Source: the human T2T-CHM13v2.0 reference genome, Homo sapiens. From it: DNA of 64,000 bases. The notes under the pieces were generated by a model. The model saw nothing but the letters and a program-made list of their open reading frames with translations, searched no databases and had not been told where the DNA came from. The stretch is from NCBI RefSeq assembly GCF_009914755.1, contig NC_060931.1. One strand, 5' to 3'. A program made the position numbers and the translations under genes. Shown in pieces: positions 1-57,244 of the stretch; positions within the stretch are counted from its first letter, which is position 1, and every line of letters begins with the position of its first letter.

Positions 1-156
1 CTACTCTATGTGGTAAGAGTAGGGATAGGTACCTTTTGAGCTGAGATGTGGAATATGAGGAGGGAGCCAGGAATGGAGGCTGCTAAAAAGGACCTCCCTT
101 CTCTTCTGCTTTCTCTTTCCCTTCTTGTTTCCTGTCATCATCTCTCTATTTCTAGA

Positions 157-318
157 TCAGTGCTTCTCAGACTTTAATGTATGTATGAATCACCTGGAGA
201 GCTTGTTAAAATGCAGATCAGATTCAGCAGGTCTGGGCTGGGACCCGAGATGCTGCATTTCTAATAAGTTCCCTGGTGATGCTGCTGCTGCTGCTCCTTG
301 GACCACCCTTTACACAGC
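157..318. mobile_element. MER5A-type hAT-Charlie DNA transposon
   Basis: CAGTGCTTCTCAGACTT...GAATCACCTGGAGAGCTTGTTAAAATGCAGA...TGCATTTCTAATAAGTTCCCTGGTGATGCTG matches the MER5 pattern; boundaries approximate. Confidence 0.75.
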
Positions 319-959
319 AAGAACCTGGAGGTGGGGTAGGTGCTGAGGCGAGATAATAGAACCAGAATCAGGGCAGTGGCGGGGCGATGAGGGCCACTAG
401 GTGGATTTGAGAGCTGTTTAGGAGGTAATGTCAAGGCCTGGGGAAGCTGGTGGTGCAGACCAACGGTGACAGAGGAAGAGGCTAGGGTGGCAGTCATGTG
501 TCTGGCATGGATAAGGGTTGCACAGGAGTGTCCTTGCTGGGCTGGGGAGAGGGGAGGAGAAGCAAGGCTGGGGGACCAGGAGATGGGCAGTGTGCCTTTG
601 GACCTGCTCAGTTTGAGGGTCCTCGGGCTAGGCCAGTAGAGGCAGCTGGATACTGTAGTGGTGGGGAGAGGACAGCAAGTAGGTCTGAAATACAGAGCTG
701 CTCTATAGATGAACTTCTAGAAGGAGTGAGTGATTCTTGGATGCTCCCAATGACATATCAATAGAGGCAGCACAGATGGCTCCGTCATGGTTCAGAAGAC
801 CTTTTCGAATCATTCAGGAGCCTAGGCCCTGAAGGATCTAGGACATCAGGGATCATCGGTCTACACTCAGACACCTTATCATACAGTCCTGCTTTACTAA
901 CAGTGTGAAGCCTGGGCTGGGGGTAGGTGGAAAGGAAGTACTTTGTGCTCTGTTCCCTT

Positions 960-1295
960 GGTACCCAGAATGGGTCTTGGATCAGCAACATCAGCATCCC
1001 TAGGGACATTTCAGAAATGCAAATTATTTGCCCCCCTCAGATCTGCAGATTCAGAATCTGCATTTTGACAGACTCCCAAGTAATTCGTGAGCTCAGTACA
1101 GTTTGAGAAGCACCAGCCCAGGCCAGCAGTTCTCAATCTTCCATACATTTGAATCACCAGGGGAGCTTTACAAGGTGCTGATGCCTGGGTGGCATCTCCA
1201 AGAATTTCTGATCTAATTGGTCTGGGGTAAGGCCAAGGATTCAGGACTTTTACAGCTGCCTAGGTAAGTCTAATGCATATCCAGGGTGAAAACCC
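960..1295. mobile_element. Two adjacent MER5-family fragments
   Basis: CAGCAACATCAGCATCCC...AGAAATGCAAATT...TTTGAGAAGCAC, then CAGCAGTTCTCAATCTT...GAATCACCAGGGGAGCTT. Confidence 0.6.
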
Positions 1296-1871
1296 CTGCC
1301 CTGGCACCACCCAACCTTTGACTGACTACAGCTGGCGATATTGAAGGTGAATGACATTGTAGAAGTAACTTTGCATCTTTGGGCCTCAAGTTGGAAACCT
1401 GCAACCCCTCTAACTACCCCCATCCCCATTCCCATGTGCCTGGTGGGAGCCTGGAGGAGGGCAGGCAATGTGGGAGGGTTCTGGGCAGTCCTAGAAAACT
1501 CAGCCGTAAAGAGCCAGCTGGTTCTTCACACAAGCAGCTGCAAGCCCCCCCACCAGGCCCCTACTGCCTGCCAGGCCAAGACAGGGAACTGCCAAGGTGA
1601 AGAATCTGAGAGGGCATCCTTAGTCCTTGCCCTGGGAAGTTCTAGCTGGCAGGGAAGACCTTCAAAGACCAAAGGGAAGAAAGCCCACCACGCCAGGGTA
1701 AGAGAAGGAGTGGGGATATTTTCTGGGTAGAGTGCCCAGGTAGGTCTTCCTCCCTCTCTCACCTGGAGAGAAAAGCTGGAGAAATTAGGTGCCAACTCTA
1801 GGATGTGCCCAGGAACCTCATTATTTCAGGGAAAATTCAGATTTTAAGATGCATTCCTTTCTATTATTCCT

Positions 1872-2030
1872 TGCTACTCAAAGCGTGGTCCCTGGACCAG
1901 CAATGTCAGCGTCACTTGGGAGCTTGTTGGGAATACAGAATCTCAGCCCTACTGGCTCAGATGTACCGGATCAGAATTCAAAGTTTAGCAAGATCTCCAG
2001 GTGATGCACAGGCACATTAGTTTGGAAAAC
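1872..2030. mobile_element. MER5A-family fragment
   Basis: GCTACTCAAAGCGTGGTCCCTGGACCAGCAATGTCAGCGTCACTTGGGAGCTTGTT...AGTTTGGAAAAC. Confidence 0.65.
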
Positions 2031-4085
2031 CTTGCCTCCTGGTCCCCAGCTGAAATACAGTGTCCAGGACCACGAGCCAGGTGGGTCCAAGCTTCTTAGC
2101 GGCCCTGCCTGTCGAAAGGGTTCCAGGTTCCTCCCGGTGGGCCGGCTCATGGTTCCTCTGCCTGGTTAGGCCTGGCAGAACCTCCATGAATCAAAAGGTG
2201 GCAGGAAATGGACCTTTCTCTCCCAAGGAGGATCCACACAGAATCTCCTTTCCAGCCTCCGCCTGCTGCTTCCTGCCCTGCACTGCCCTCTGGTGGCCAT
2301 GGAAGCCATTGCCACCTGGCATTGCCCCCGTCTCCAGCAGATCCAGGACCCAGGGATGAAAGTCTGTTGCTTATGGTGGATGGACGAAGACTCGTCATTG
2401 TCCTCTGATATAAGGCTCAGGGACCCCAAAAACATGATGGAGGCAGTTTGAAAAGCACTGAGCTTCAGCAGCAGGATGGCAAATGTGCCTGGGGTGCTGG
2501 CTCAACCCTTCTCCCCATCACAGCTCTTTCCTGTACCACTTGCTGGAGTCTGTTCAGAGGTGGGGCATGGGCTAGAGAGGAGGGGAGGAGTTCTGTGTTG
2601 CAAGGACTTGCAGGTAGGAGGTTGCTGGACTGGTTCCGGGAGCCCTCTTGGTGTGTACCGGCCCTGAGGCAGCAGCCAGGGTGTGCAGGGCCTCATGCAC
2701 TGTTGCTGGGCTGGGCCCTTATCCCCGCGGGGCATGGTGTAAAGCAGGATACAGCCTGGCCTGCACCGGCTTTGGAAGGTTTCTCTGGGGAGAACGGACT
2801 GGGGTTGGGGACACTGGGAGTTGAAAGACCTGTGAGGGGTCATGCCACATTTTGGAAAGTAGTTGGGGGCTTCATGTAGGCCTGGCCTGGTTGGAGAAAT
2901 GCTGATGCCCTTCCTACATCCCAGGGAAAATGAGGAAACCCAGTGCTAAGAGCTGGCTGGAACTGAGCTGGCTGTTTGAGTAAGAAGAGATGTACGACCT
3001 TGTGAAGGTCCTTCTAGGGACGTGGCCCCAGGCCTTCCCAGAGGTCAGAGGCCCCAGGTTCTCGACCATATGGATGGACAGCCTGAGTCCCGGCTCTGCC
3101 CTGCTGGTCAGCCTCAGCCGACCATTTCCTGAGGCTCCATCACCACCAGATCCGTCGTAACCTGGACAGAGCCCAGGCTCCAATGCTGCCCCTGCCACTG
3201 ACCACTTAGCACTCTGGGTGGGGCCAGTCCCCTCCCCTCCCAGACCTCGGCTTCCCCACCTGCAGGAACAGGAGCTTGGCCTAGAGGTCTTCTAGCTCTC
3301 ACAGGTGCCTTTCCACTTTAAGAACCTGAGATCCTGTTCCTCTGGTGGAAAAACCAGCCTCCCCAGGACCTGTCCCACACCCCAGCCAACAGGACATTTC
3401 ATGTCTGTTGCAGATGCTCTTGCTGCCTCTTCCCATTCCCTCAGCATGCTGGCTGAACTTCCCACAGCCAGCACCTGTGAGTCTTCACTCGAGGCTTCTC
3501 TCTTGGGCTGCACTGTCCAAATACAGGTGAGTTGGACATGCTGGGGAATTAACGCCCCTCAGGAGCAGCCCTCTGTCATGATGACAGGAGTCGGTGGGCA
3601 AGTGTTGCAGCTCCCGGGGTGGGATAACTCCGAGCCATGTGCTCTACGCTGGCCCCAGAGCCCCCAGCACAACGGCGTTCCAATTGCCCACAGCGGTAAG
3701 GGTTTGATGACACCCTGTTTGGCTGCCTGCTCTGCTTTCCTTCCCACGTCCTAATTGATGTTTCCTGGGATCTCCCTCCAAATCAACTATCAGCACTGAA
3801 ATCCTTGTCTTAGAGTCTGCTTCTATGGGAATCCAAACAAAGATAGTATCCAGCTAAGTCACTTTTTGTTCATGATCTTTGGTATGGGGTAGTGTAAGGG
3901 ACAGACCCCTAGGCGGGGTGCTGGGGGAACCCTTGCTTTTCACTTGTGACCTTGGGACCAGGTAACAGGAATGAAGAGGTAGGGCTGAGACCTGACCTGC
4001 TTTTAGGGGGAGCTGTGGGGCAAGACTGTAGATGCTCTGGTCATGACTTCCCCTCTCGGTCAGGCCCTCTTCTGCCAGGCTGGCC

Positions 4086-4476
4086 TCAGACACTGGGGCC
4101 CTTGCAGGCAGCCACAAAGCAGATGCCGTCGTTGATGGAGCATGTCTCAGAGCAGCTGATGGGGCACACCTCTGCACCTGGCAGCCAGCCTCCTGCATGG
4201 CCTTCTCCACCGTCTCCTTCTCTGGGTGGAGCCCAAAGAACTTCTTGGAGCCTACCATATAGTGGGAGTGCAGGGCAGCCATGGTGACCAGGTTCCCATC
4301 TGCCTTCAGCAGGCTGGCCAGCCTCTGCAGGGCTGCCCAGTACATGTCCACATCAGGACAGGCACTCTTCAGGGGACACCTGGATTGACCCCAGTGGATG
4401 CAGCTTGGTCATATCGCACTTCAGCAACCACGTGACCGTCCAGCAAAGCTGGTTCTCCTTCTCATGCCACCTGCTT
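4086..4476 (-). pseudogene. Exon 3 of an unprocessed INMT/TEMT-like methyltransferase pseudogene
   Basis: Minus strand: acceptor CCTCCTCCATAG|A (phase 2, as in INMT exon 3). It reads SRWHEKENQLCWTVTWLLKCDMTKLHPLGSIQVSP, then a deletion/frameshift, then ACPDVDMYWAALQRLASLLKADGNLVTMAALHSHYMVGSKKFFGLHPEKETVEKAMQEAGCQVQRC, then a frameshift, then PISCSETCSINDGICFVAACKGPSV-stop (TGA 4088-4086). Colinear with INMT exon 3 in this window. Confidence 0.93.
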
Positions 4477-4719
4477 CTATGGAGGAGGGTCACAGAGATG
4501 ACATAATGATTGTGATAGCAGCCCCTCAGCCCTCACCACCACCCTCTGGGCAAAGCCTGTGACTTATCCTGTTCAGCAACTCTTTGAGCGAGATTATTAT
4601 TTTCCTCATTATACAGATGAAGAAACTGAGGCATAGACTTGCTCACGTCTACACAGCTGTAGGTGACAGTGGATTCGATAACTCCCCTTCCCCTCCTCCT
4701 GCGCCTCTTTCTTTTAAAC

Positions 4720-5080
4720 AATTGAATAGTTTTTGGTATATTACATTATTAATTTCATTAAGTAGTAAACTATATTACAAAATTGGCCATTTTGATCAAA
4801 GTGTACGGTTCCGTGACATTAATTGCGCTCACACAGTTGTGCGCCCGTCACCAACTGTCTTTCCAACATTTTTGCATCATTCCATATGTAAACCCTGTAC
4901 TCATTAAACAGTAACTCCCCATTCCCCATTCTCCCTCCTGGCAGCCCCTGGTAACCTCCAATCTACTTTCTGTTTCTGGATTTGCCTATTCTAGACGTTT
5001 CATGTATGGGGAGCCTACAGTATTTGTCCTTCCCTGTTTGGTTCATTTCACTTAGCGTAACATCTTTAGGTTCAGCCATG
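4720..5080 (-). mobile_element. Old L1M 3' fragment
   Basis: CAGCCCCTGGTAACCTCCAATCTACTTTCTGTTTCTGGATTTGCCTATTCTAGACGTTTCATGTA...TTCACTTAGCGTAA is typical antisense L1MB/ME 3' sequence. Confidence 0.7.
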
Positions 5081-5089
5081 CCGGAACTC

Positions 5090-6010
5090 CCTGCTTCTTG
5101 AAACACACTCTTTACTTGGCTTCTTGAGGCACTTCACCCTCGTGGTTCTCCCTTTTTCTGTCTCCCTGAACACCCTCCTCCACTCCCTAGCCTTAGAACA
5201 CAGCATCTCCTCCCCATCCACACTTAGCCACTTGATGGCCTCAGCCGTCCACGGATGACTCCCAGGTCAGGCTCCAGCCCTGGAGTCTCTGGGAGGCCCA
5301 GACATGCACAACCAGGGGCTCCTCCGTGGGTATCTCCACTTCAGTGTCAGGCAGGTGACTCCAACACATTGCCCAGGCTGAGAAGTCAACATCTGCTGCC
5401 ATACCTGCTCCTTCCTTGTCATTTCCCTCCTAATACTGGCAACTCCATCCTTCTTGTGGCTGTGGCCAAAAACCTTGGAGTTGCCCTTGACTCTTCTCTC
5501 TCTCTTACATCCAAACCATCAGCAAATCCTGTTGGCTCCGCCTGCAGAGTGATTCCAAACTCCAGCCACCTCCAGCCCCTGCAGGCCTCCTGCTGTTGGC
5601 TCTTCCCTGGAGGATGCCAGCACCTGCTGCTGCTCTGCCCAATGCTGCCCTCGCCTCCCAAGGCCTAGCATGATGAACAGTTCTTTAAGAAATGTAGAGG
5701 CTATCATGCCATTCTCTTCTCCAGTGCCTGGGAGATCCACGGCACCATCCTCCCTCCTTACCGTGGCCCTCAAGGCCCCACAGGATGTGGTCTCCGCCTC
5801 CCTGACACCTAACTCTCCTCCTCACTCCACCCCTCGCACAGCACCCTTTTCACTGTCCTCGACACACGGGCGGCTCCCCGCCACCACTGGGCCTTTGCCC
5901 TTGCTGCTCGTGCTGCCTGACACTCCCTTTCCTCGGGTCTTTATGCCTTTTCTCCCTTCCTTCGCTGGGACACCACTTGGAGTGCTCCTCGGAGAGGCCC
6001 TTTCCCACCA
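5090..6010. mobile_element. L2 fragments
   Basis: GGCAACTCCATCCTTCTTGTGGCTGTGGCCAAAAACCTTGGAGTTGCCCTTGACTCTTCTCTCTCTCTTACATCC...CAGCAAATCCTGTTGGCTC is the L2 3' motif. Confidence 0.65.
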
Positions 6011-6797
6011 TCCCACCACCCACAGTGCCCCACCTCGCTCTGGCAACTCCTACAGTTTGCAGTGCACACCCTGCCCAACTGTGCATGGCGGCCCTAAATC
6101 ATCTGAGCTGTAGTTCTTGCTATTACTACTGACTGGCTGTTTGACCTTACCTGGGCTGGCCTCCTCTCTCCCTGCTCTCTTACCTGAGCCTCAGTCTCCC
6201 CTTGTGTGCACTGAAGGACTTGGTGATAGTCTCTACTGGCTCACCCCATTCTGATACCCGAGGGCAGGGATTTGTAAACTAAGCTATGTGGTTTGCCTTT
6301 GGATATCCATGAACTCTGTCAGTTTTGTGTAGAAAATTTGTGTGTGTTTGTGTGTGTGTGTGTATCAGAACTTTCATCAGATTTTCAGAGGGATTCAAGA
6401 GCCCAGAAAGGCTACAAAGCCTGGCTTTATGGACTGTCTGCAGGGGAGGCTGGCAGAGACAGAGAGACAGCCGGCAGTGTGTTCATTATGTCTGTTCTCT
6501 AATTTTCCCTCAGCATGAGCCTGTGAGCCCCAAGCTTCTCCCATTTTATAGGTGAAGAAACTGAGGCCCACTGGCAGAGACTCATGCCCAGCTTCTTGGC
6601 CTCCACGGCCCGTGCTCAGACCCCATTGAGCTGCCACCTGGCAGAGGCCCTCATGGGTTCATAGAGCTTGACTGGGCTGACTTTGCAGCATCTTTGGTGA
6701 GCAGTGGCCAGAGGATGGGGCCGCTTCCCTCCAACCCGCAGGTCTTGCTGTCAGCTGTAACCCTGTACTGCCCCCAAAGTGGAGACCAGCCATTCAC

Positions 6798-6953
6798 CTG
6801 AAGAGAAGCTTTGAAAGAGGGTTTCCAGGTTAGATTTCAGGATTTCATTTTTGGTCACAGTGCTGAGTTGAAGGCGTAGTAGGTCAGTAAGTAGTCCCGG
6901 GGGTGGAGCTCTTTCTCACAGTCTTTTCCTCCTGTATACAGGTTGCCCTCCAA
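6798..6953 (-). pseudogene. Exon 1 of an unprocessed INMT/TEMT-like methyltransferase pseudogene
   Basis: Minus strand: TTG at the expected ATG position, then EGNLYTGGKDCEKELHPRDYLLTYYAFNS, a 1-bp deletion near 6863, then TVTKNEILKSNLETLFQSFSS-G|GTGAAT. This is a phase-1 donor at the same position as INMT exon 1 (CCT G|GTGAGC). The PRDYLxTYYxF motif is shared with INMT. Confidence 0.93.
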
Positions 6954-7505
6954 CTGGCTGAGGACCCCTCGGTGCCTTCCCACTCTTCAGTCATGGTAGG
7001 TACACCCCTGCCCTTCCAGCCTTTCCCACCAGGAGTTTCACAGCCTCCTGGAACCAGCGCCTGCCTCTCAGGGAGGTGCTCAGATTCCTCACAGATGAAG
7101 CCAGAGACACAGTGTGAGCTTTTCTGGCTGGAGTTTATCTGCTTGATACATTACCAAAATCATAAGAACGCAACAGGATCACCAGGGCCAGGTCTCACGG
7201 GTTCCTGCTTCGACATGGTGTTTTGAGTGTAGGGGCTGCTGGAGGCAGGGAGGGAGAGACTTACACAGAGGGACACAGACACAGAATGAGAGAGACAGAC
7301 AGGCAAAGAGACAAACGGAGACAAAGACAGAGGCAAAGAGAGATCAAGGGTCTGCAATATTTCAAGGATGTTTCACTCTTGGAGTTTGGTGGGAAAACAA
7401 GAATCAGAGTGGAAAGGCCCCTTGGGGGAGGAAACAGGATCTAAAGATGGCTAAGATTTCACTGATGAAGGTCAGTGAGCTTGCTCTTGAAAACAGGCTT
7501 GTCCT

Positions 7506-7661
7506 GGCTGGGCATGGTGGCTCATGCCTGTAATCCCAGCACTTTTGGAGGCTGAGGTGGGAGAACTGCTTGAGCCCAGGAGTTTGAGACCAGGAGACCA
7601 GCCTGGGCAACACAGCAAGACCACACGTCTCTCTAAAAAAGAATAAATAAATAAATAAATA
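7506..7661 (+). mobile_element. Alu left monomer (FLAM-like) with (TAAA)n tail
   Basis: GGCTGGGCATGGTGGCTCATGCCTGTAATCCCAGCAC...CCAGCCTGGGCAACACAGCAAGACC followed by an A-rich tail. Confidence 0.8.
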
Positions 7662-7924
7662 AGCAGCTTGTCCTTAACTTGATTCACTATTCTCTGCTGC
7701 CTTTAATTCTGTTTACTTTATTTACTTGCTTAATTAATCTCTTTTTTTGACTAGTGCAGAAGTAAACTTAGCCAGGGTCCATATGTTTGGACAAACCATT
7801 TATAAAGTGTTGCCATTCATGAACAGAACATGTGATAAAATTGCAAAGAATTTACTACACACCACACACAAACCCACCCACCCACACGCGTGCATGTGCA
7901 CACATGCATGCCCACAGACACACA

Positions 7925-8135
7925 AATGAGTACAAGTAAAACTCAAGAAACCTGAATAAGATCAGTAGATTGTATCAATGTCAATATCCTGGTTGTGATA
8001 GTGTACTATTATTCTGATGTTATACTAGATGTTACCACTGGGGGAACCTGGGTAGGGGGTGCACTGGATCTCTCTGTATTATTTCTTACAGCTGCATACG
8101 AATCTACAATTATCTTGAAATAAAAAGTTTTATTA
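7925..8135 (+). mobile_element. L1MC-type 3' end
   Basis: GATTGTATCAATGTCAATATCCTGGTTGTGATA...GATCTCTCTGTATTATTTCTTACAGCTGCATACGAATCTACAATTATC...AAATAAAAAG. Confidence 0.7.
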
Positions 8136-8148
8136 AAAGAGTGTTGCC

Positions 8149-8494
<346 letters not shown>

Positions 8495-8968
8495 TCAGGC
8501 AGCAGACTGTCATGTCTTTTGCAAATGGGCAAGTCTGGGGCCTCAGCTGGTGATGAGCTGCCCCTCTGCAGATGCTGTAAGAGCAGATGAAGGGAGACAC
8601 CTTGGAAGGTCCCTAGCACTCACAGAGTACCTACTGTGTGCTGGGCATCACCTTGTCATCTTCACAACAATCTGCAAAGTACATGCTGATGCGCCCCCTT
8701 AGAGATGAGGAAGCTGAAGGTGACGTGCCTTACCCAGCAAAGGATGGAATTCAGATTCCAATTCAAGGCTCTATGCCCAAAGCCAAAATAAAGACGAACT
8801 CCAAGCCTCATCCTCACATTGCCCTCCTGTCTTCATATCTTCATAGAACTGCTTAAATGTTAGCATGCCTGGGAGTCACCTGGGGACTGGGTTATAATGC
8901 AGGCTCTAGTTCTGAGGTTCTGCATGTCTAATAAGCTCCAAGACACTACTGAGGCCACCACACTTTGA

Positions 8969-9302
<334 letters not shown>

Positions 9303-9574
9303 TTATTTTTTATTTCTTCAGGTTTTGAGTTCACAAGAAAACATTTCAACAGAGTGTAGATTTTAATCCATTTTTAAATCATAATTCTTATCATTTTATT
9401 GTGTTAAATGTAAATTTTCCTCTTTTCTAAAATTAACAGAGCTCATACTCTGTGGAATTTCAGTTCAGTGAGAAAAGTGTCAATTACATAATAAATGGTG
9501 ATGGCATAACTACCTATCTGATTGGAAGAAAATAAAATTAGATGTCTACCCAGTTTATTAAAAATGAATTTCAA

Positions 9575-9780
9575 GCCTGGGCAACATAGCGAGATCCTGC
9601 TTCTGCAAAAAAAATTAAAAATTAGCTGAATGGGATGGCGTGTGCCTACAGTCCCAGCTACTCAGAAGGCTGAGGTAGGAGGATTGCTTGTACCCAGGAG
9701 TTCAAGGCTGCAGTGAGCTATGATCCCACCACTGCACCCCAGCTTGGGAAACCAAGTAAGATCCTGTCTCAAAAAAAAAA
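9575..9780 (+). mobile_element. 5'-truncated AluJ-like element
   Basis: AGCCTGGGCAACATAGCGAG...CAGGAGTTCAAGGCTGCAGTGAGCTATGAT...polyA. Confidence 0.8.
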
Positions 9781-10959
9781 TTCATATTGAAATCCAATTA
9801 ACGTGAATTCTAGGTGGGTTAAAATGATTGGTGACATTGAGGGTCTTATATTTGTCCCAGCATTTCTCATGTCAGAATTGGCCTCTGCCGCTGCACTCTT
9901 GCATCTGAAAAGTCTTTGCAGGGCTGTGATCTCCTCACTGTGTGTACCTATCTGGATCGCTTTGTTCTCCTAGCCCTGGGCCAAACTCACTTCTCCATGT
10001 CACCAGGAAGGCTCAGGAATGTCAGTTTTGGGGGCTGTTCAAGTAAGGTTGACTTAATTGCTCTCCAGTGCTTGGCAGGTAAGAGACTTGCAGGTTTTCC
10101 TTGCTGTAAATAATGTTGTAATTAATACCCCTGTACATTTGCTTTTTCTGTATTTGGATTATTTTTCTGTATTTCTGCATTCTGTATTTTTCTGTATTTT
10201 GGATTCCCATACGTAGGATTCCTGGGTCAGAGTTCTAAAAACTTTTAGTATAAATAATTTAGGCAAATAATCACCAAATTTTTTTCCAAAAGGAAAATAG
10301 TGCTTTTTCTTTTTAATTTTTTAGGAAAAATTTTTAATTTTTCTCTAACAAAATATGAGATAATGTAATATAATGTAAAATAATAAATGTGGTTTTTTTT
10401 TTTCTCTTCAGGCTTTCTTCAATCTAGGTTTAGAAAATCCTCTCTTACCCAGAAGTTTGATAACAATTTGACCATGATAGCTTCTGTGGTTGATTTTTGG
10501 AAAGACATTTTAGCCTTTATTTTGGTGTTTTGTGTGAGACGAGGGTCTGAGTAGCTGCTTGCAACTCACCAGAGAAAACAATCTCATTTACACTGGCAAG
10601 TTCCCTCTTTGGACTCATTTCTTCACCCCACAGAGCCAGGCAGGAAGAGAAGTAGCAAGGTATCAGGGAGCGTGGAATGCTGAGATGGTAGTTTCCCTAA
10701 TCTTGAAAAGGAGCTTGATCCTTTTCTTATCTGTCTGACTTTTCAAGTGGTCTTAGTTTCTTGATAGGCAGTTTGAAATTTGCCCCTTTGCTTACTATTG
10801 CAACAGAAGTCCTCTTGAATGGAAATTTCCTTGCTCTATTTTAAAAAAATATCACTGTATAGAAAGGTGCCTAAGATGAGGTGCACATTCTTAAAAGGGC
10901 CTGAAGCTTAGCCCTGTCATGAACAAAGTGTTGTCACATTGATGAAGGCAAACCTAAGG

Positions 10960-11172
10960 ATAGTGGTTCTCAACCGGGGACAATTTTGCCTCCCAGGGGA
11001 CATTTGACAATGTCTGGGGACATTTTTGGTTGTTGTAACTTCGGAGTGTACTGGCATCTAGGGGGTAGATGCCAGAGATGCTGCTAAAAATCCTATGACA
11101 CAGTTCCGCACCCCCACCCAACAAGGAATTACCTGGCCTGAAGAGCAAATAGTACTGAGGTTGAGAAACTCA
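10960..11172. mobile_element. MER20 DNA transposon
   Basis: AGTGGTTCTCAACCGGGGACAATTTTGCCTCCCAGGGGACATTTGACAATGTCTGG...GAGGTTGAGAAAC. Confidence 0.85.
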
Positions 11173-11737
11173 TTCTTAGAATATATCCGTAAGAGGCTTC
11201 ACTTTGAGAAGATTGCCATAGTGCTGTTAGGACCCTTGGTTAGGCCAGAGTCACGAGGCATGTAGGGATGGAGAAGGCCTGAGTGGTGGAGAAGCAGGTG
11301 GAAGCCAGAGGGTAGAGACTCTGAATGCCAAAGGGGAGTTTGGATTCATTCCTCTGGCAGCAGGAGGCACTGGAGGCCTTGCGTTAGGAGGGGCATCCTC
11401 TATCCATCCAAGGACATCCAGTTGCAGCATGATGTGTAGTTCTGGGAAGGATGGTCTCTTCCCGCCCTGTACAGACCCCCTAGATGCTCACGTCCTGCTG
11501 CAGGGGCTCTGGGTAATCCCTGGATAGTACATGCATGTCCACGGTTCAACTCCTTAAGTGTTAATGCTGGGCGTCTTCCATGTGCCTCTCCATTCTGCTT
11601 TCCATCCTCTCCAGGCTACTGCAAGTGCCAGGAAGCTGACATGTGGACTGTAGTCACCACTCCCTTCCCTCTAAATTTGGCAGGATATTGGAGGAAGGTA
11701 GGAGAAGGAGGTCTGGGTATTTATTCTTTAGCTACTC

Positions 11738-12104
11738 TATTAGTCCGTTTTCATACTGCTAATAAGGACATAACCAAAACTGGGTAATTTATGCAGGAAA
11801 AAGGTTTCATGGACTCACTGTTCCACATGGCTGGGGAGACCTCACAATCATGGCTGAAGGCAAGGAGGAGCAAGTCATGTCTTACATGGATGTCAGCAGG
11901 CAAAAAGAGAGCTTGTGCAGGGAAAGTCCCCCTTATAAAATGATCAGATTTCAAGAGACTTATTCAGTATCATGAGAACAGCATGGGAAAGACCTGCCCC
12001 AATGGTTCAATTACTTCCCACCGGGTCCCTCCCACAACATGTGGGAATTGTGGGAGCTACAATTCAAGATAAGATTTGGGTGAAGACACAGCCAAATCAT
12101 ATCA
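11738..12104. mobile_element. THE1-type MaLR solo LTR
   Basis: TATTAGTCCGTTTTCATACTGCTAATAAGGACATA...ACAATTCAAGATAAGATTTGGGTGAAGACACAGCCAAATCATATCA. Confidence 0.85.
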
Positions 12105-12203
12105 GCTCTTTTGCTATTGGCTGCCGCAGGAGGCCCTCTCTGCACAGCTCTGTCTCAGTCTCACTGGGATGATGGCTCCTCCATGCTGCTAGCCCTCAGG
12201 TTC

Positions 12204-12598
12204 TGTGATGGTGCTTTCTATGAGTCAACTTGGCTAGGTCATGGTGCCCAAATAGGTGGTCAGTCATGATCCTGGCTGTTTGTGTAAGGGTGTTTTTGGA
12301 TGAAATTCACATTTAAACTTTGAGTAAAGAAGATCGCCCTCCATAATGTGGGCGGGACTCATCCAATCAGCTGATGGCCCAAGTAGAACAAAAGACTGGC
12401 CTTCCCCGAGCAAGAGGGAATTCTGGCAGCAGCTGGTCTTTGGACTTGGACTGCAACATTGGCTTTTCCTGGTCCCACCCTTCAGAGTTTGGACTTACTG
12501 GCCTCCACAATTATACAAGCCAATTACTTAAAATAGATCTGATTCTCTCAGTGTACACAAGCTGGGTTCTCTTTCTCTGAAGAACCCTGACTAATAGA
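12204..12598. mobile_element. MLT2-type ERVL LTR
   Basis: TGTGATGGT...TGAGTCAACTTGGCTAGG...CCCTCCATAATGTGGGCGGGACTCATCCAATCAG...GAAGAACCCTGACTAATA. Confidence 0.75.
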
Positions 12599-13681
12599 GG
12601 TACCATATGTCTTCCTTCCACCCTGCCCACAACTTAGTTAGCACCGTGCCTTTATTGCACACTCCTCCAATCATGTAATGCGAGCCCTGCAGTTTCCTGC
12701 CTGCTCTGTATGCCTTTTGCAGGCCAGCACGACAGCCGCAGGCCTCCCTGGAGGCTGCCCAGGCACCCGCCCCTTGGAAGCCAGGCCCTGACGACCGCTG
12801 GGTGTTCCTGCGTCTGTGGCATCCCCCATCTGTTGGGCCCTGTGGATTCAGAATTGTTTGTTTACTTAAAGCCAGAACAAGGCATTCCTGTCCTTCCCAC
12901 TTTCAGGGCAAGAGGCCTGAACCTCCAGTGTAGCGGATTCATTTCTGTCCGGTTTGTGGCCAAGTCAGAGCCATTTCCTAGTGCCAAAAACAGAGACTGA
13001 GCTTTTTTCTGTCTGTGGGAGATTCTACAACCCAGTCCCATTTCAAAGAGAAGACTGAGGCCAGGAGTGTCTTACCCGGAGTAGCCTGGTGAGTCAGTGG
13101 CCAGGAAGCCAGGACCCCTCTGACAGTTTATGCTTTATGACCGGGCGCCCTTGTTCTCATTCATGGAGATTGACGACAATTTCTGCTCTTCTCCCAGTGA
13201 CCTGCACAGTGATGCCAAGTCAGCCATTCTGCTCTGCCTCCTGGGGTCTGAACTGTGTTCTCCAGCAGGGATGGGGGATGCATGAAGCTGCACCCACTGC
13301 CTGGCCTAGAGAGAGCCACTGGGCCCCAGTGACCACCAGGCGACAAGATGGGGATCTCACTGTGCACTCAGGTCACAACACCTGTGACTTAGAGGAGTGA
13401 CTTTGGTCCTTACAGTCAGTGAAGTGGGCACGCAGGTGGGGAAACATAGGTCTGACACCTACTTGGAGGCCACACAGCAGCATGTGGCTGCCAGGGCTGA
13501 GAGTTGCACCCAGGGCTGGGCACCATCAATTGCCTTTGACGGACATGGGTTGGTCCCTAGAGGCAGCAGGGCCAGGGCGGCTGCAGCCCCAGCTGTCATA
13601 GCTCTGGGGTTGGGGAAACCTCAGGTGTGTCAGTGTGGCTGGGAGGTGGTGAGACATGCACTGCCTTCTGCATCCCCCTAG

Positions 13682-14137
<456 letters not shown>

Positions 14138-15281
14138 TGAGTCTGTCTCCCCATGGCTCAGGAGCTCTGTGCCAGCTGAAGAGCACAGCCCCGTGCAGTT
14201 CCCACACTGCTCTCCATTAGCCCCTAGGTCTTTGGGGTGGAGCAGAAAAGGCTCTCCAGGTCATCATCAAGTTCAGTCCTGACCTTGCACAGCCAGGCCT
14301 CTGGGGCCCCCAGAAGGCCAAGGGCAAACAGCAGGGTTGCAGTGGGACGGGATCGCCTGTGCCCGGAGTGTGCAGCCTAGATGTGTCTGTGATGAGGACC
14401 TGGAAAAGCCCTGCCCTGGGACAAGGATTGCTAGGTGGGGTCTCAACCCTGAGCAAGGGGCTCAGACCCCAAGGACCTCAACTGAGCCATCTGCACGATG
14501 GATGGTGACTTCTGCCTGTCTCCCGATGATCACTGCCCTCCCCATGGTGACCCCATGATTTGATTGTGTCTTCTAAACTCAAGCAGCCGTGTCCTCACTT
14601 TAGGCACTTGACTGGGGAACAGTAAGGGTGAGTCTCCTGGTGGTCTGTGGGATAAGAGGGGGTTAAAAGGCTGCTGAGCCTGGAGGAGCAGGCCGGTGTG
14701 GGAGGCAGAAATCAGAGAACAGCCGGACTGGGTGTGACCAAGCTTGGAAGGCCAAGTGATGGCCCCACGCCAGGGCTCCAGACAGAATGTTGGAAGTCAT
14801 GCTTCATTCCAGCTTCCAGGTGACCCTGGATTCACTCCTGGGGCCATCTTCCCAGATCATCTCCTTAGCCCCGGCTTCCTATTCCTGTATGCTTTCACCC
14901 CTCCCTCCTCCAAGGAACAAGAAACCCATCCAGGAAGGGCTGGACTTCCAGGGGAGGCTTCCAGCTCCCAGTCAGCCTGAAACTTAAAGGGCCACTGCCC
15001 CCAGCATGTCCTCTCTGAACTCTCCAGCCCGAATCTTCCCCAGAGCAGGGCTTGGGCCTCTGTTCTCTGTCCCAGAAATATTATACTCTTGGCTTATGTT
15101 CTTGACTGAAAGGTATTGGGCTAATTGTTTAACCTTTTACAGACTCAGTTTTCTAATCTGCAAAATGAAAATAGTGATAGCAGTCACTACACAGGGTAGT
15201 TTTGAGGTGTAAATGGAAATTAACACATATAAAATATTTGGCATGAGGCTTGGCTTACAGGGAGCTGCCAATCCGTGATAA

Positions 15282-15602
<321 letters not shown>

Positions 15603-15929
15603 TAGGGGTGCAGAGGTTGGGGAGGGGGTTCCCAGTCAACCTTCTTTCTCAGAAGTCTCCCTGGCCTCTTTGTTGTCTCTGACATTTTCAGGACAGTAGG
15701 ACCTTCAGGTATAGGACCAGATGTCCTGTGGTGGGGATAGAGTAGATGGAATCCCAAGTTTCAGGATTACAGCAGTTTTAGGGGCAAGACTCTGATCACA
15801 GGACTATGTTGAGGTGTGATATAGTCAAGTACGAACACTGAAAACCAGATGATTTTCATCTCTTCCTTCTTCTCTTCCTTCCTTACCCTCATCTATATAT
15901 CTACCTCTCTATCTTCTATGTATCTAACT

Positions 15930-16380
15930 ATCCGTGCATATCCATCCATCCGTCCACCCACCGGTTCATCCATTCATCCATCCATCCATCCATCCATCCA
16001 TATTCATGCATCCACCCACCCATCCATATCCATCCATCCATCCAGCCAGCCAACTAGCCGTTCACCTATCCATCCATCTATCCATCCGTCCATTCATCCA
16101 TCCATCAATATTCATCCATCCACCCACCCATCCATTCATCCATCCGTATCCATCCATCCATCCATCCATCCACCCATTCATATCCATCCATCCATCCACA
16201 TACATCCGCCCAGCCATCCATCTATCCATCCATCCACCCATCCATCCATATCCATCTATACATCCATCAATCCATCCACCCATCCATCCATATCCATCTA
16301 TCCATCCATCCATCCATCCATCCATCCATCCATCCATGTCCATCCACATTCATCCACCCACCCACCCATCCATCCATCTT
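15930..16380. repeat. Degenerate (TCCA)n simple repeat in INMT intron 2
   Basis: About 450 bp of CATC/CACC units; the source of the spurious IHPS-rich ORFs. Confidence 0.95.
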
Positions 16381-16883
16381 TCCTTCTTCCCTCTATTGTC
16401 TGTACCTGTGTGACTGACTATATAATGTATAATGACGTGAACTCACCACCCAACCTGAGTACTCGAATATAATAAAGACTTACCTGTGCTTCTCTGTGAC
16501 TCCTTGCCTCTGCCTTTCCCAACCTCGGGTAATCACTAATATGGATTTTATGCTTATCATTCCCTTTTTCAAAAAATTTTTTTCTTGCATACTTATGTAT
16601 ATCTAAACAATCTATAATTTAGTTTTAGTCGCCTTTGAGCTTTATAGCAGAGTAATTTGCTCTGTGTCATTTGCGATTTGCTTTTCATCACTCAAAATTA
16701 TATTTTTAAGATAGCTATATTCATACATTATCTGTAGTAAATTCATTAATTCATTCATCCATCCATCCAATAATGTTTGTTAACTGCCCTCTCTGTGCTT
16801 GGGGTGGCTTTGTCCATCCTGGGGATTAAGGGAAGGGGGCTCACATGGAATCAGAGAGAGAAAGTTTCCTATAATTGTTCTAG

Positions 16884-17510
<627 letters not shown>

Positions 17511-17803
17511 GCCAGGAGGGCCAGCCAGAGGTCTGGTCAGGCTGTGAGGCCTTGGCCATCTGTATGCTAGAGAGGGGTGAGGAATGGATGCTGTCTAACA
17601 GTCTCTGATTTCAACACTAACATTCCATCTTCTGAAATTCTGAGATTCTAACATCCTTGTTTTAGAATTCTAAGTTTCCAACATTCCTCATTCTAGGATC
17701 CTAGGAGTGGAATTTTCCATTTTCTAATATACTAAGCCTTACAGCTATCTTAGATGCGATCTGACTCCTGTGTGACTGTGGAGCACCCAGGGACGTGGTT
17801 TTA

Positions 17804-18370
<567 letters not shown>

Positions 18371-18374
18371 AGGG

Positions 18375-18564
18375 GGAATGTTCTATAACCAGCTCTGTAA
18401 AGGAAAAGCACTGATGTGTGGTAGTCACCAATTTCTGTGGTGTAAATACTCCCACCATGGTTGATTTCAAGCCACCAGTGGTTTAATAACCAGCTCATAA
18501 ATCTCCTAAATATTTTACAGTTGACTCTCATGAGCTGATTGGAGTCAGCTGGAACATACCACTG
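18375..18564. mobile_element. MER63-like hAT element, interrupted by the Alus (its other end near 17879)
   Basis: CAGTGGTATATTGG at 17879 and ...CTGGAACATACCACTG near 18564 form terminal inverted repeats; internal GTTGATTTCAAGCCACCA. Confidence 0.55.
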
Positions 18565-18579
18565 CCTCTAGACTAAGGC

Positions 18580-18758
18580 CAGCAGATTTAGCAAATACAG
18601 ACTGCCCCAGTTCATTGAATTTTAGATAAATGAAATAAATCTATAAGGTTAAGTATGTCCCCAGAACTGCATGGAACATGCTTAATCTAAACAATGATTT
18701 GTTGTTCACCTGAAATTCAAATTTAGCTGGGTGTCCTGTATTTCATCTGGCAACCCTA
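18580..18758. mobile_element. MER53 palindromic MITE
   Basis: CAGATTTAGCAAATACAG...CCCAGTT...GAATTTTAGATAAA / CACCTGAAATTCAAATTTAGCTGGGTGTCCTGTATTTCATCTGGCAACCCTA; imperfect inverted arms. Confidence 0.75.
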
Positions 18759-18771
18759 CTTCAGACCCAGG

Positions 18772-19352
18772 TGTAAGGTACATGGATGTGCTTTGGTCAA
18801 GGAATAGGCCAAGGCAGAGATCCATGCCTGCATGACTCAGTGGGTTTGGTGCACAGGCACACACCTCCACTTGTTATATAACCTGTTTGTGTAAGTTCAT
18901 ACTTGGTCTGAGCCACTGTTGTCTGTAAAAGGTAATTGTCCTGCTAATGCTGTACAGGGGCTCTTGGGGTTCGGCTCAGCTCAACATGGCTTGACATGGT
19001 GGGCACACTGGCGCCCAGTAAGAGAGAGAGAGAGCCAAAGCTGTCCGTTTTGCAGATGGACAGGAAGGAGCCAGGACACAGCTCAGCTTGCTCACGCCCA
19101 GAGAGAGAAAAAGTTAAGCTGCTGACCCTGAAGGCAAGGGAGAGCAGGCTGCACAGCTGTGTGTGGAAGCCACGGGCTCAAGCAGCCAAGGCAGGGCGGA
19201 CAGTGTGAGAGAGCTAGTGTAAGCTGTTGATGAGAGCTGTTGCTGAATAAAACCATATTCACCTGCCTATGGGCCCTGAGTGTTCTTTCTGTCCATCTAC
19301 CCACTCCCCTCAGACTTTAGCACGGGCTGGACCTGGACCCCAGGACCTGACA
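18772..19352 (+). mobile_element. LTR18-type (ERVL) solo LTR
   Basis: Starts TGTAAGGTACATGGATGTGCTTTGGTCAAGGAATAGG and ends CCTGACA; TSD-like CCAGG/CCAAG; internal AATAAA. Family name is from my recollection of the consensus. Confidence 0.75.
19246..19251 (+). terminator. Probable INMT polyadenylation signal (AATAAA, inside the LTR)
   Basis: AATAAA in the LTR. Its use gives a spliced mRNA of about 2.6 kb, in line with my recollection of INMT mRNA size. Confidence 0.65.
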
Positions 19353-55320: not shown

Positions 55321-57244
55321 TGGGCCCAGGGCAGGTATTCTCATATAATACATGGTGGGGAGGGGCTGCCCGTGGAAGAGCAGCCCACTTCTAAGAGGAA
55401 AAAGGGTAAAGCTGAGCCTAAATGCCTTTTATTTTTTATGGAATTTATCAGTCATATAATTCACACTTCCTCCGTTAGGGTGGAGTGATTAAAGAGGGGA
55501 AGAATGGCCAGGTGGGCCAGACCAGCAGAGCCTTCTTCAAACTTCTAGAAAACACTGGGAGTTGAGAAAAAGCATCCTTCAACCCAGCAATTATTATCCC
55601 CATTTCACAGATGAGGAAACTGAGGCACAGAGAATCCAAGGAACCTGACAAGGTTCTGGGTGGGTGCAGATCCAAGGGCACACAGACTGGCAAATGGAAT
55701 ATGGGCTGGATTTCAGCTCTCTCTCACTGCCTCAGCGAGGCGTCTTTGTGTAGTGCACATACTACACAACTCTACACAGTGCTCTTGATTTGAAACCAGG
55801 GCCAAAGTAATCCCAATGGTAAATATATCTGCATCCCCTGCCCTTCCCAACTCCCCTCCATCAGTGCCCCCTTCCCCTTGTTTTTTGTTTAATTCAGTTT
55901 GGTAAACATGGGTCTCAGTCCTAGTGTGTACCAGGTCCTGTGAGTTCTTCAAGGGGAGACACACATGTGCACATATAATTCTTCTAAAGCGTGGGAAAGT
56001 GCAGTGAGATGGCATCAGAGCTGGCCATATGCACAGAGCCAGCTCCACCGCTCTGTCCTAAGGAAGCTGGAGGAGAGGGAGCTACTTGGGGCCCTTTTTG
56101 GGCCTCCAAACATCAGGTTCAGGAAAATCCATGGAAGTCACACCTAGGGGCACAGGTGGGGTTAGGGGGCAGGTGGAGGATGCAACCTGCTGAGATGTTA
56201 GGCGGTGTGAGTATCTGTGCAGTCAGGCCCTCCTAACTCTGACACTCCTCAGATCTGACTCCGGGAGCTGAAGGGACTATTTTCTGGTTTATTTTTTGTT
56301 TTTCTTCTGTGCCCTTTGATATCAAGAGATGCTTGGAAAATATGTCACCTGGACTCCCATTGTGGGGGTTGTGGCTGTTTGGGGCCACCTGTCACTTGTC
56401 GCTGGCTTGTCAGGGCTGCCCTTGTTGGGTTCCTCTCACCATCACTCAGAACCATGGGGACTCTGGCCCTGACTGGGCAGTCCTCTAACCCTCGTCTCTC
56501 TCTCCCTCTCGCTAGAGTGCTGTGTTGCGGGCGGGGGCCTTTCTCTACACATTTGTGGCTCTTGCTGTCACCCACACACCTGACCTGAGTAGACCCTCAG
56601 GAAACTTCAGATGTAGTACGGAGCATGGGAGAGGAAATTTTTACTTACAACCCCCCAGGGCTAGGTCTTCCAAGCCTCTTGGCTCCTCAGGGGCACTTTG
56701 TGAAGGTGGGTTCTTTGGAGGCACCTCACTTGTGTTGCTCACAGCCCTCCGTTGGGGTGTGCTGGCCTGTCATTTGTCTGAGGGCCCCTCAGAGTGAGTT
56801 TCTGGACCTGCAGATGGCCACATGGACACTCCTACAGTTGGCTTTCTGCAGATTAACTCAAAACACACCATGCTGGGCATCTAGCAATAGGTGTAGGCAT
56901 AGGCTGCACAAGTTCCAGCCACTTACTTGCTCAGTCAGCTTCAGAAACCTGGGTGTAACTGTGGTCATGAATTGAGAAGAGTTTTATCCTCCCTTAGGAA
57001 TTCAACCCACAGCAGTTGCCACAGCACTGACATCTAAGGGTCAGGGCTGGTGAGCAAATGTGTGCCCTGTCACATGGCTTCAACCATGGAGCCGTGGGAT
57101 CCAGGGGTACCAAGATATGAAGGCCTATGGTATAAATGAGGGTTCTGAGGCCCAGAGAGGGGCACAGACCTCTCCAGGGTCACACAGGCCATCAGGGTCA
57201 GGGACCAGATGACCTGACAGTATAGGCAAATAGAGGGGTGCATG

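What the first reader, a model, noticed from the sequence alone, without database searches (positions are those of the whole stretch)
4086..6953. Hidden second INMT-family gene: an unprocessed pseudogene head-to-head with INMT
Seen in sequence: the minus strand carries an exon-1 homologue (6953-6798, phase-1 GTGAAT donor) and an exon-3 homologue (4476-4086, phase-2 acceptor, terminal TGA). Both intron positions match INMT. The ORF track shows only part of exon 3 and misses exon 1. Lesions: TTG in place of ATG; a 1-bp deletion near 6863 giving TGA at 6857-6855; a roughly 30-bp deletion removing the [10 protein letters not shown] strand near 4370; a frameshift near 4166. Several Arg positions are now TGG/TGC (LCW vs INMT LRA, TW vs KR, YW vs YR, ACK vs ARK), consistent with CpG decay after loss of constraint. 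Exon 1 shares only about 22 of 52 residues with INMT by hand count. Inference: this is an old inverted gene duplication, not a retrocopy or a recent copy.
Basis: seen in the sequence. Interest (0 to 1): 0.8.

Follow-up and report, generated by a model that had tools for sequence, protein, structure and literature searches.

The report
Dead TEMT-type twin of human INMT
Just upstream of human INMT lies the broken remnant of a second, older sister gene that is still intact in rabbits, camels and mouse-like rodents, which suggests that the rodent gene called Inmt is not the true counterpart of human INMT.

Summary
The minus strand at 4086-6953 carries exon-1 and exon-3 homologues of the NNMT/PNMT/TEMT family (profile E 2e-7 and 3e-29). 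They have a GT donor and an AG acceptor at INMT's two intron positions. The listed lesions are confirmed: TTG start, 1-nt loss, about 29-nt loss, second frameshift.

The relic is not a decayed copy of INMT. It is 66-70% identical to intact 263-aa "INMT-like" proteins of camel and pangolin, against 46% to human INMT. In a careful tree it sits with support 100/100 inside a second mammalian clade, "A". Clade A includes camel, pig, cattle, pangolin, tree shrew, rabbit, pika and murid and cricetid rodents. Forcing it into INMT's clade "B" is rejected (AU p 0.0033).

Rabbit, pika, gundi, Fukomys and shrew keep both genes. Listed primates have only B. Listed mouse-like rodents have only A.

So this is a unitary pseudogene of the TEMT-type paralogue. 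Rodent "Inmt" is probably its orthologue, not INMT's. That would explain why recombinant rat INMT does not methylate tryptamine. RefSeq does not annotate it, and ten literature searches found no mention of it.

The parts
6798..6953 (-). Exon-1 relic (156 nt). TTG stands at the Met1 position (6953-6951). One nucleotide is lost at about 6862, which gives an out-of-frame TGA at 6857-6855. The exon ends in phase 1.
   Evidence: It matches camel P0003 and pangolin P0004 at 33 of 50 aligned codons each, and human INMT at 23 of 50. The clade-A profile gives E 2.4e-7 and 1.8e-4.
6792..6797 (-). Splice donor GTGAAT after the exon-1 relic, at the same codon and phase as INMT intron 1.
4479..6791 (-). 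Remaining intron sequence. The exon-2 homologue (residues 53-120, including the glycine-rich SAM-binding loop) is absent. The stretch holds a (TG)n run at 6339-6363.
   Evidence: Neither tblastn nor profile searches hit residues 53-120. blastn with INMT exon 2 finds nothing. The (TG)n run is from TRF.
4477..4478 (-). Splice acceptor AG, preceded by a pyrimidine tract, at the same codon and phase as INMT intron 2.
4086..4476 (-). Exon-3 relic (391 nt against 430 in INMT). It has an about 29-nt deletion at about 4376 that removes a core strand, and a second frameshift at about 4158-4175. The stop TGA at 4088-4086 is in the family's place. Seven Arg positions now carry TGG, TGC, CAG or CAC.
   Evidence: It matches camel P0003 at 89 of 127 aligned codons, pangolin P0004 at 86 of 127 and human INMT at 58 of 126. 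The clade-A profile gives E 3.4e-29. PF01234 scores 54.7 bits.
13798..19267 (+). INMT, the surviving clade-B paralogue. It diverges head-to-head from the relic, 6.8 kb away.
   Evidence: Hub annotation. The CDS translated is identical to P0045.

Best explanation
The stretch is the dead human copy of a second INMT-family gene (a unitary, unprocessed pseudogene).

History, as I read it:
- An early mammalian duplication produced two neighbouring genes. It predates the placental radiation, and in two quick trees it predates the split from monotremes.
- Clade B is INMT proper. It includes human and rabbit INMT.
- Clade A is the form annotated 'INMT-like' in many mammals. It includes the only 'INMT' of murid and cricetid rodents, which I infer to be the mouse TEMT (thioether S-methyltransferase) type.
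- Lagomorphs, gundi, Fukomys and shrew still have both genes.

In the lineage leading to humans, clade A lost its start codon, its exon 2 (the SAM-binding loop) and its reading frame at three places. It then drifted, with CpG decay of its arginine codons, and cannot encode a methyltransferase.

Shown here: family membership, gene structure, lesions, clade placement, and the taxon distribution of annotated proteins.

Inferred: mouse and rat Inmt are orthologues of this relic rather than of human INMT. Mouse-like rodents would have lost clade B and primates clade A. This could be why rat INMT lacks tryptamine N-methylation.
For: 1. Homology and structure: as set out under the observation check.

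2. Closest relatives:
- The exon-3 piece is 74%, 70% and 68% identical to intact or nearly intact 'INMT-like' proteins of camel, pangolin and donkey.
- The frameshift-aware alignment gives 33 of 50 and 89 of 127 codons against camel. Against human INMT it gives 23 of 50 and 58 of 126.
- Against solved structures, the exon-3 piece scores NNMT 48 bits, INMT 38 and PNMT 19. It is therefore not a young INMT copy.

3. Trees:
- In the careful tree (68 rows, LG+C20+F+G4) the relic lies inside clade A (24 rows) with UFBoot/SH-aLRT 100/100.
- Holding it with clade B costs 38.6 lnL, p-AU 0.0033.
- With 91 unnamed outgroup representatives, A (23 rows, 99) and B (28 rows, 98) are sister clades (99). Platypus INMT is on the B side (quick trees).

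4. Distribution of annotated proteins:
- 35 of the 120 clusters listed are at least 66% identical to the camel protein. The 31 named ones are Laurasiatheria, Glires and Tupaia. None is a primate.
- 36 of the 120 clusters listed are at least 70% identical to human INMT. Their 8 named rodent genera are squirrel-like or hystricomorph. None is a murid, cricetid or spalacid.
- Rabbit, pika, gundi, Fukomys and Sorex have one protein in each clade. In each species both are linked to a contig of the same length.

5. Relaxed constraint: the relic differs at 12 of 55 columns that are invariant in 21 intact clade-A rows. Seven of 8 Arg columns show CpG-type changes.

6. Literature, read as passages only:
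[quoted passage not shown] Rat is 57% 'homologous' to either (PMC9822953).
- Mouse TEMT has 264 aa and is 58-59% identical to human or rabbit INMT (PMC12467775; PMC6634407).
- In my data clade-A rows are 51-57% identical to human INMT and the three clade-B rows compared are 79-87%.
- With mouse proteins as reference plus synteny, 'INMT' is a unitary pseudogene in naked mole-rat (PMC8851862). NCBI nevertheless annotates an intact clade-B INMT there (P0122).
Against: - No protein named Mus or Rattus appears in my lists. The rodent link rests on Meriones, Acomys, Myodes, Scotinomys and Microtus, and on identities quoted in papers.
- Synteny of the clade-A genes could not be checked. No mammalian genome other than this window was readable, so positional orthology between the relic and rodent Inmt is not shown.
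- Absence of primate clade-A proteins, and of myomorph clade-B proteins, is absence from annotation lists cut at 120 rows. It is not absence from genomes.
- The rows for the trees were chosen by hand (66 of the 122 proteins then in hand).
- The platypus placement and the A+B sisterhood come from quick trees only. Clade A has a long stem (0.2-0.3), which could distort them.
- The clade tested by AU was named after the first tree was seen.
- I could not check GENCODE, so the relic may already be annotated there.
Confidence: 0.85

Rival explanations
1. The relic is a decayed lineage-specific duplicate of INMT itself, a dead spare copy with no orthologues of its own. Its distance from INMT would reflect only neutral drift.
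For: It lies next to INMT and shares its exon structure. Its terminal branch is long, 0.28 against a median of 0.09.
Against: It is much closer to the camel and pangolin 'INMT-like' proteins than to INMT: 89 of 127 codons against 58 of 126. It nests in clade A at 100/100. Grouping it with clade B is rejected at p-AU 0.0033. Drift alone would not make it converge on another clade.
Confidence: 0.03
2. Clades A and B are one orthologous gene. The rodent and artiodactyl forms simply evolved fast, so rodent Inmt is a true but divergent orthologue of human INMT. The relic would then be an extra copy of unclear origin.
For: Gene nomenclature and the papers read treat mouse TEMT/Inmt and human INMT as one gene (PMC10844679, PMC12467775).
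Against: Five species carry one protein of each clade: rabbit, pika, gundi, Fukomys and Sorex. Each clade roughly recovers mammalian orders on its own. The human genome itself holds a member of each, INMT and the relic.
Confidence: 0.05
3. The locus is still functional in some form. It could make a truncated protein or a regulatory RNA, for example one acting on the neighbouring INMT promoter.
For: Splice signals survive at both kept boundaries. A predicted lncRNA runs antisense across it (hub annotation). No in-frame stop remains once the frames are corrected.
Against: The start codon is lost, exon 2 with the cofactor loop is absent, there are three frame breaks, and 12 of 55 invariant residues are changed. 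No expression data were available to me.
Confidence: 0.05
4. The similarity is chance, or a processed retrocopy.
For: None beyond the short length of the exon-1 match.
Against: Profile E-values go down to 3e-29 within 13 kb of sequence. Two blocks are collinear, 2.3 kb apart, and bounded by GT and AG at the family's intron positions and phases.
Confidence: 0.01

Closest known systems
Human INMT (indolethylamine N-methyltransferase; PDB 2A14), the neighbouring gene in this window
   Same: Same Pfam family (PF01234), the same two intron positions and phases, the same stop position, and an adjacent locus.
   Different: Only 46% identical over the surviving codons (23 of 50 and 58 of 126). It belongs to a different clade. 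INMT is intact and the relic is dead.
'INMT-like' / clade-A proteins of camel (P0003), pangolin (P0004), rabbit isoform X1 (P0009), Tupaia (P0014) and gerbil (P0026). I infer, partly from recall, that mouse TEMT (thioether S-methyltransferase, gene symbol Inmt) is of this type.
   Same: The relic nests among them at 100/100. It matches the clade's majority residue at 121 of 178 comparable columns. The N-terminal and C-terminal motifs and the lengths fit.
   Different: Those proteins are intact, at 261-264 aa. The human copy lacks its start codon, its exon 2 and its reading frame. The identity of mouse TEMT with this clade was not tested on a named mouse sequence.
NNMT (nicotinamide N-methyltransferase; PDB 2IIP, 7EGU)
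   Same: It is the best solved-structure match of the exon-3 piece (8.9e-12), which reflects the family's shared core.
   Different: NNMT and its sauropsid and amphibian relatives form a separate group in every tree. No exon-1 match to NNMT appears.
Classical human unitary pseudogenes (for example GULOP; recalled, not tested here)
   Same: A gene that is intact in other mammals is disabled in place in humans, with introns kept.
   Different: Here a close paralogue survives next door under a shared name, and this has hidden the loss.

Membership tests
NNMT/PNMT/TEMT methyltransferase family (Pfam PF01234) | Significant match to the family profile | tested here: met
   PF01234 scores 54.7 bits (cut-off 25) on window:4175-4375:-, at profile positions 168-234. 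The exon-1 piece scores 15.9 bits, below the cut-off. My own profiles give 3.7e-25 and 3.4e-29.
NNMT/PNMT/TEMT methyltransferase family (Pfam PF01234) | Three coding exons, with a phase-1 intron after codon 51 and a phase-2 intron after codon 120, as in the window's INMT | tested here: met
   The donor at 6797-6792 and the acceptor at 4478-4477 fall at the aligned codons and phases. Only the outer sides of the two introns can be tested, because exon 2 is missing.
NNMT/PNMT/TEMT methyltransferase family (Pfam PF01234) | Glycine-rich SAM-binding loop (encoded by exon 2) and an open reading frame, that is, a working enzyme | tested here: not met
   There is no hit to residues 53-120. The start is TTG and the frame breaks three times. 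It is a member by descent, not a functional member.
Clade A ('INMT-like', TEMT-type) as against clade B (INMT proper) | Falls inside the clade in a supported tree, and the alternative placement is rejected | tested here: met
   Support is 100/100 for the 24-row clade. AU gives p 0.0033 against clade B. The placement is the same in the 80-row and 170-row quick trees (99 in both).
Clade A ('INMT-like', TEMT-type) as against clade B (INMT proper) | Positional orthology (the same place between CRHR2 and MINDY4) with clade-A genes of other mammals, mouse Inmt included | not testable with these tools
   No other mammalian genome could be read. The only hint is that the A and B proteins of rabbit, pika, gundi, Fukomys and Sorex are linked to contigs of equal length.
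Unprocessed pseudogene | Introns retained at the parental positions, with disabling lesions | tested here: met
   The two blocks are 2.3 kb apart with GT...AG. The lesions are listed.
Unitary pseudogene | Intact orthologues in other species and no working copy of the same orthology group in this genome | tested here: inconclusive
   Intact orthologues: yes. No human or primate clade-A protein appears among the 5 hits or the 35 clade-A clusters. The two 98%-identical hits, P0001 and P0002, read through the same frameshift. The rest of the human genome was not searchable.

The most novel reading that the evidence does not exclude
Human INMT and the rodent gene called Inmt (mouse TEMT) are out-paralogues, kept by reciprocal loss after an ancient mammalian duplication. 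Primates kept clade B and killed clade A, which is this relic. Mouse-like rodents, and also cetartiodactyls, kept clade A and lost clade B.

If so:
- Rat and mouse Inmt knock-outs and recombinant rat 'INMT' say nothing direct about human INMT or about endogenous DMT synthesis.
- The lack of tryptamine methylation by rat INMT is a property of the TEMT-type paralogue.
- The two amine N-methyltransferases long seen in rabbit tissues may be the products of the two genes.
Probability: 0.78. Interest if true: 0.75.

Novelty: new member of a known kind. Interest (0 to 1): 0.66.

Why it matters
INMT is studied as the presumed enzyme of endogenous DMT synthesis and of selenium and sulfur methylation, and much of that work uses rats and mice.

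The papers I read treat mouse TEMT/Inmt and human INMT as one gene, and state that INMT has only two paralogues in the human genome. One paper is puzzled that rat INMT (57% identical) does not methylate tryptamine.

A dead clade-A gene beside human INMT, together with species that keep both genes, offers a simple explanation: the two 'INMTs' are different genes. That would change which animal models are valid. Rabbit, pika or guinea pig carry clade B; rat and mouse do not, as far as the annotated proteins show.

It also gives a directly testable prediction about the substrate range of the two clades, and it adds an unannotated unitary pseudogene to the human gene-loss list.

Tried and rejected
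- Exon 2. I looked for it with tblastn using INMT and three clade-A proteins, with family and clade-A profiles under --max over six frames of 1-13000, and with blastn using INMT exon 2 plus 60 nt on each side. Nothing was found. The best DNA hits were 29-47 nt at E 0.03, outside the relic.
- Hit at 56664-56729 (+). This weak protein hit (E 0.002-0.05) is 22 residues with 11 identities. I judged it chance.
- Nucleotide similarity between the INMT gene and 1-13000 is confined to Alu-like repeats at 7503-9780.
- Ten literature searches found no paper describing a human INMT/TEMT-type pseudogene, or saying that rodent Inmt and human INMT are paralogues. The terms were: INMT+pseudogene; thioether S-methyltransferase+INMT+ortholog; INMT+TEMT; INMT+paralog; rat INMT+tryptamine+rabbit; INMT+gene duplication+rodents; INMT-like; Inmt+unitary pseudogene; INMT+phylogenetic+dimethyltryptamine+orthologs; thioether S-methyltransferase+pseudogene. 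Subscription journals and supplements were not covered.
- A bioRxiv paper cited in a review (2024.04.19.589047, outline and abstract only) was irrelevant.
- I did not date the inactivation. No primate or other mammalian DNA was available for dN/dS or for mapping shared lesions.
- I made no structure prediction or complex job. Neither would bear on a dead gene.
Full report
**1. What is there**

On the minus strand two blocks match the NNMT/PNMT/TEMT family.
- The window's own INMT protein was spliced from the annotated coding parts. By tblastn it hits 4481-4130 (E 2e-12) and 6938-6843 (E 6e-4). No other place in the 64 kb scores better than E 3, apart from INMT itself.
- Pfam PF01234 scores 54.7 bits (cut-off 25) on the main exon-3 piece.
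- A profile of clade-A proteins, run with all filters off over the six frames of 1-13000, finds three exon-3 pieces (3.4e-29, 8.6e-12, 1.9e-6) and two exon-1 pieces (2.4e-7, 1.8e-4). The only other row is a chance-level match at 103-216 (E 3.8).

**2. Gene structure**

INMT's coding exons end in phase 1 after codon 51 and in phase 2 after codon 120.
- The relic's first block runs 6953-6798. It stops one base into the aligned codon 52 and is followed by GTGAAT.
- The second block starts at 4476 with the last base of the aligned codon 121. It is preceded by a pyrimidine run and AG, and it ends at TGA 4088-4086, the family's stop position.

This is therefore an unprocessed copy, not a retrocopy.

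**3. Lesions**

These come from a frameshift-aware alignment.
- TTG aligns with Met1.
- One nucleotide is lost at about 6862, which brings TGA into frame at 6857-6855.
- Nine codons plus two bases (about 29 nt) are lost at about 4376, removing a core strand.
- A second frame break lies between 4158 and 4175.

The exon lengths agree with this account: 391 nt against 430, and 156 nt against 154. With the frames corrected, no in-frame stop remains.

It encodes residues 53-120, including the glycine-rich cofactor loop. No tblastn, profile or blastn search finds it between the two blocks, or anywhere in 1-13000.

**4. Which family member**

Against solved structures, the exon-3 piece scores better on NNMT (48 bits) than on INMT (38) or PNMT (19). 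The exon-1 piece finds only INMT. This already argues against a young INMT copy.

A search of the large protein set with the exon-3 piece returned five proteins.
- Two unnamed ORF calls are 98% identical and read through the same frameshift, so they were called on this same broken sequence.
- The other three are 'INMT-like' proteins of camel (74% identical, 263 aa), pangolin (70%, 263 aa) and donkey (68%, low quality).

Over all surviving codons the counts are as follows.

| Comparator | Exon 1 | Exon 3 |
|---|---|---|
| Camel P0003 | 33 of 50 | 89 of 127 |
| Pangolin P0004 | 33 of 50 | 86 of 127 |
| Human INMT | 23 of 50 | 58 of 126 |

**5. Two mammalian clades**

Searching with the camel protein and with human INMT shows two tiers (120 rows listed in each, of 624 and 517 hits).
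- With the camel protein, 35 of the 120 listed clusters are at least 66% identical to it. The 31 named ones come from camel, hippo, whales, pig, cattle, deer, sheep, pangolin, mole, shrew, donkey, tree shrew, rabbit, pika, gundi, Fukomys, and murid and cricetid rodents (Meriones, Acomys, Myodes, Scotinomys, Microtus). None is a primate, afrotherian or xenarthran.
- With human INMT, 36 of the 120 listed clusters are at least 70% identical to it. They come from primates, Afrotheria, Xenarthra, squirrels, hystricomorph rodents, lagomorphs, horse, rhino, hedgehog, shrews and platypus. None is a murid, cricetid or cetartiodactyl.
- Rabbit, pika, gundi, Fukomys and Sorex appear in both tiers.

I chose 66 of the 122 proteins then in hand. 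I dropped fused proteins over 300 aa, most low-quality whale rows and redundant NNMT rows. I added the window's INMT and the relic, with X at each break and exon 2 as missing data.

The trees gave these results.
- The careful tree has three groups: clade A, clade B, and NNMT with its sauropsid and amphibian relatives.
- The relic lies inside clade A (24 rows) at 100/100, and inside its non-myomorph part (16 rows) at 99/93.
- Holding the relic with clade B costs 38.6 log-likelihood units, p-AU 0.0033.
- I added 12 more named rows.
- I then added 91 of 147 unnamed representatives (those of 245-295 aa) and dropped the donkey row.
- In those quick trees A and B are sisters (99), and platypus INMT sits at the base of B (98).

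These trees place the duplication before the placental radiation. On the two quick trees alone, it also predates the monotreme split.

**6. Signs of decay**

- The relic matches the clade-A majority residue at 121 of 178 comparable columns.
- It has changed 12 of the 55 columns that are invariant in 21 intact clade-A proteins.
- In 8 columns Arg is the majority residue. The relic keeps Arg only where its codon is AGG. The other seven are TGC, TGG, TGG, TGG, CAG, CAC and TGC, the products expected from CpG transitions of CGN codons.

**7. Reading**

The relic is the human copy of clade A, disabled in place beside its surviving paralogue. That makes it a unitary pseudogene, as far as the protein lists can show.

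The wider inference is reciprocal loss: primates kept B only, and mouse-like rodents and cetartiodactyls kept A only. Papers fit this (passages only were read).
[quoted passage not shown] Rat is 57% 'homologous' to either, against 89% between rabbit and human (PMC9822953).
- Mouse TEMT has 264 aa and is 58-59% identical to human or rabbit INMT (PMC12467775; PMC6634407).
- In my matrix clade-A rows are 51-57% identical to human INMT. The clade-B rows compared (rabbit, gundi) are 79-87%.
- With mouse proteins as reference and a synteny filter, 'INMT' was listed as lost in both naked and blind mole-rat (PMC8851862). An intact clade-B INMT is nevertheless annotated in naked mole-rat (P0122). The blind mole-rat row in clade A (P0091) looks degraded.
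- PMC10844679 states that INMT has two paralogues in the human genome, and discusses the rat result without considering paralogy.

**8. Limits**

- No sequence named mouse or rat was in my lists.
- No other mammalian genome could be read, so positional orthology, the timing of the human loss, and the true absence of the missing paralogues are untested.
- GENCODE could not be consulted. RefSeq, as given by the hub, has no gene here on the minus strand.
- Supplements were not read.

**9. Verdict**

It can be sharpened: the relic is an unannotated (in RefSeq) unitary pseudogene of the TEMT-type paralogue. Its main interest is that it exposes probable hidden paralogy between human INMT and rodent Inmt.

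Noticed in passing
window 3414-3526 and 6942-7557 (+): The predicted lncRNA LOC105375220 (hub annotation) runs antisense to the relic. Its last exon starts 12 nt inside the relic's exon 1, and the rest of the relic lies in its last intron.
   Followed up: no
window 7503-9780 and 17895-18373: Alu-like repeats between the relic and INMT match the INMT 3' UTR region. The best pair is 8154-8451 against 18069-18365, at 94% over 298 nt.
   Followed up: no
window 6339-6363: A (TG)n microsatellite of 12.5 copies lies inside the relic's remaining intron.
   Followed up: no
window 56664-56729 (+): A 22-residue stretch in a MINDY4 intron resembles family residues 182-203, with 11 identities and E 0.002-0.05. 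I judged it chance.
   Followed up: partly
protein lists: No carnivore or bat protein of either INMT clade appears in the two 120-row lists, although their NNMT does. Both paralogues may be lost or unannotated in those orders.
   Followed up: no
P0005 (donkey), P0091 (blind mole-rat), P0012/P0015/P0017/P0019 (whales): Several clade-A entries are flagged low quality or look degraded, which suggests independent decay of clade A in other lineages. Horse and rhino have clade B.
   Followed up: partly
P0018 (461 aa), P0028 (383 aa), P0061 (417 aa), P0135 (401 aa): Lizard, caecilian and frog entries are much longer than the family's 263 aa. They may be tandem genes fused by annotation. I left them out of the trees.
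   Followed up: no
P0001, P0002 (unnamed source): These are two ORF calls, 98% identical to the relic's frame-shifted exon-3 reading. They were made on this same broken sequence and are not evidence of an intact gene.
   Followed up: partly
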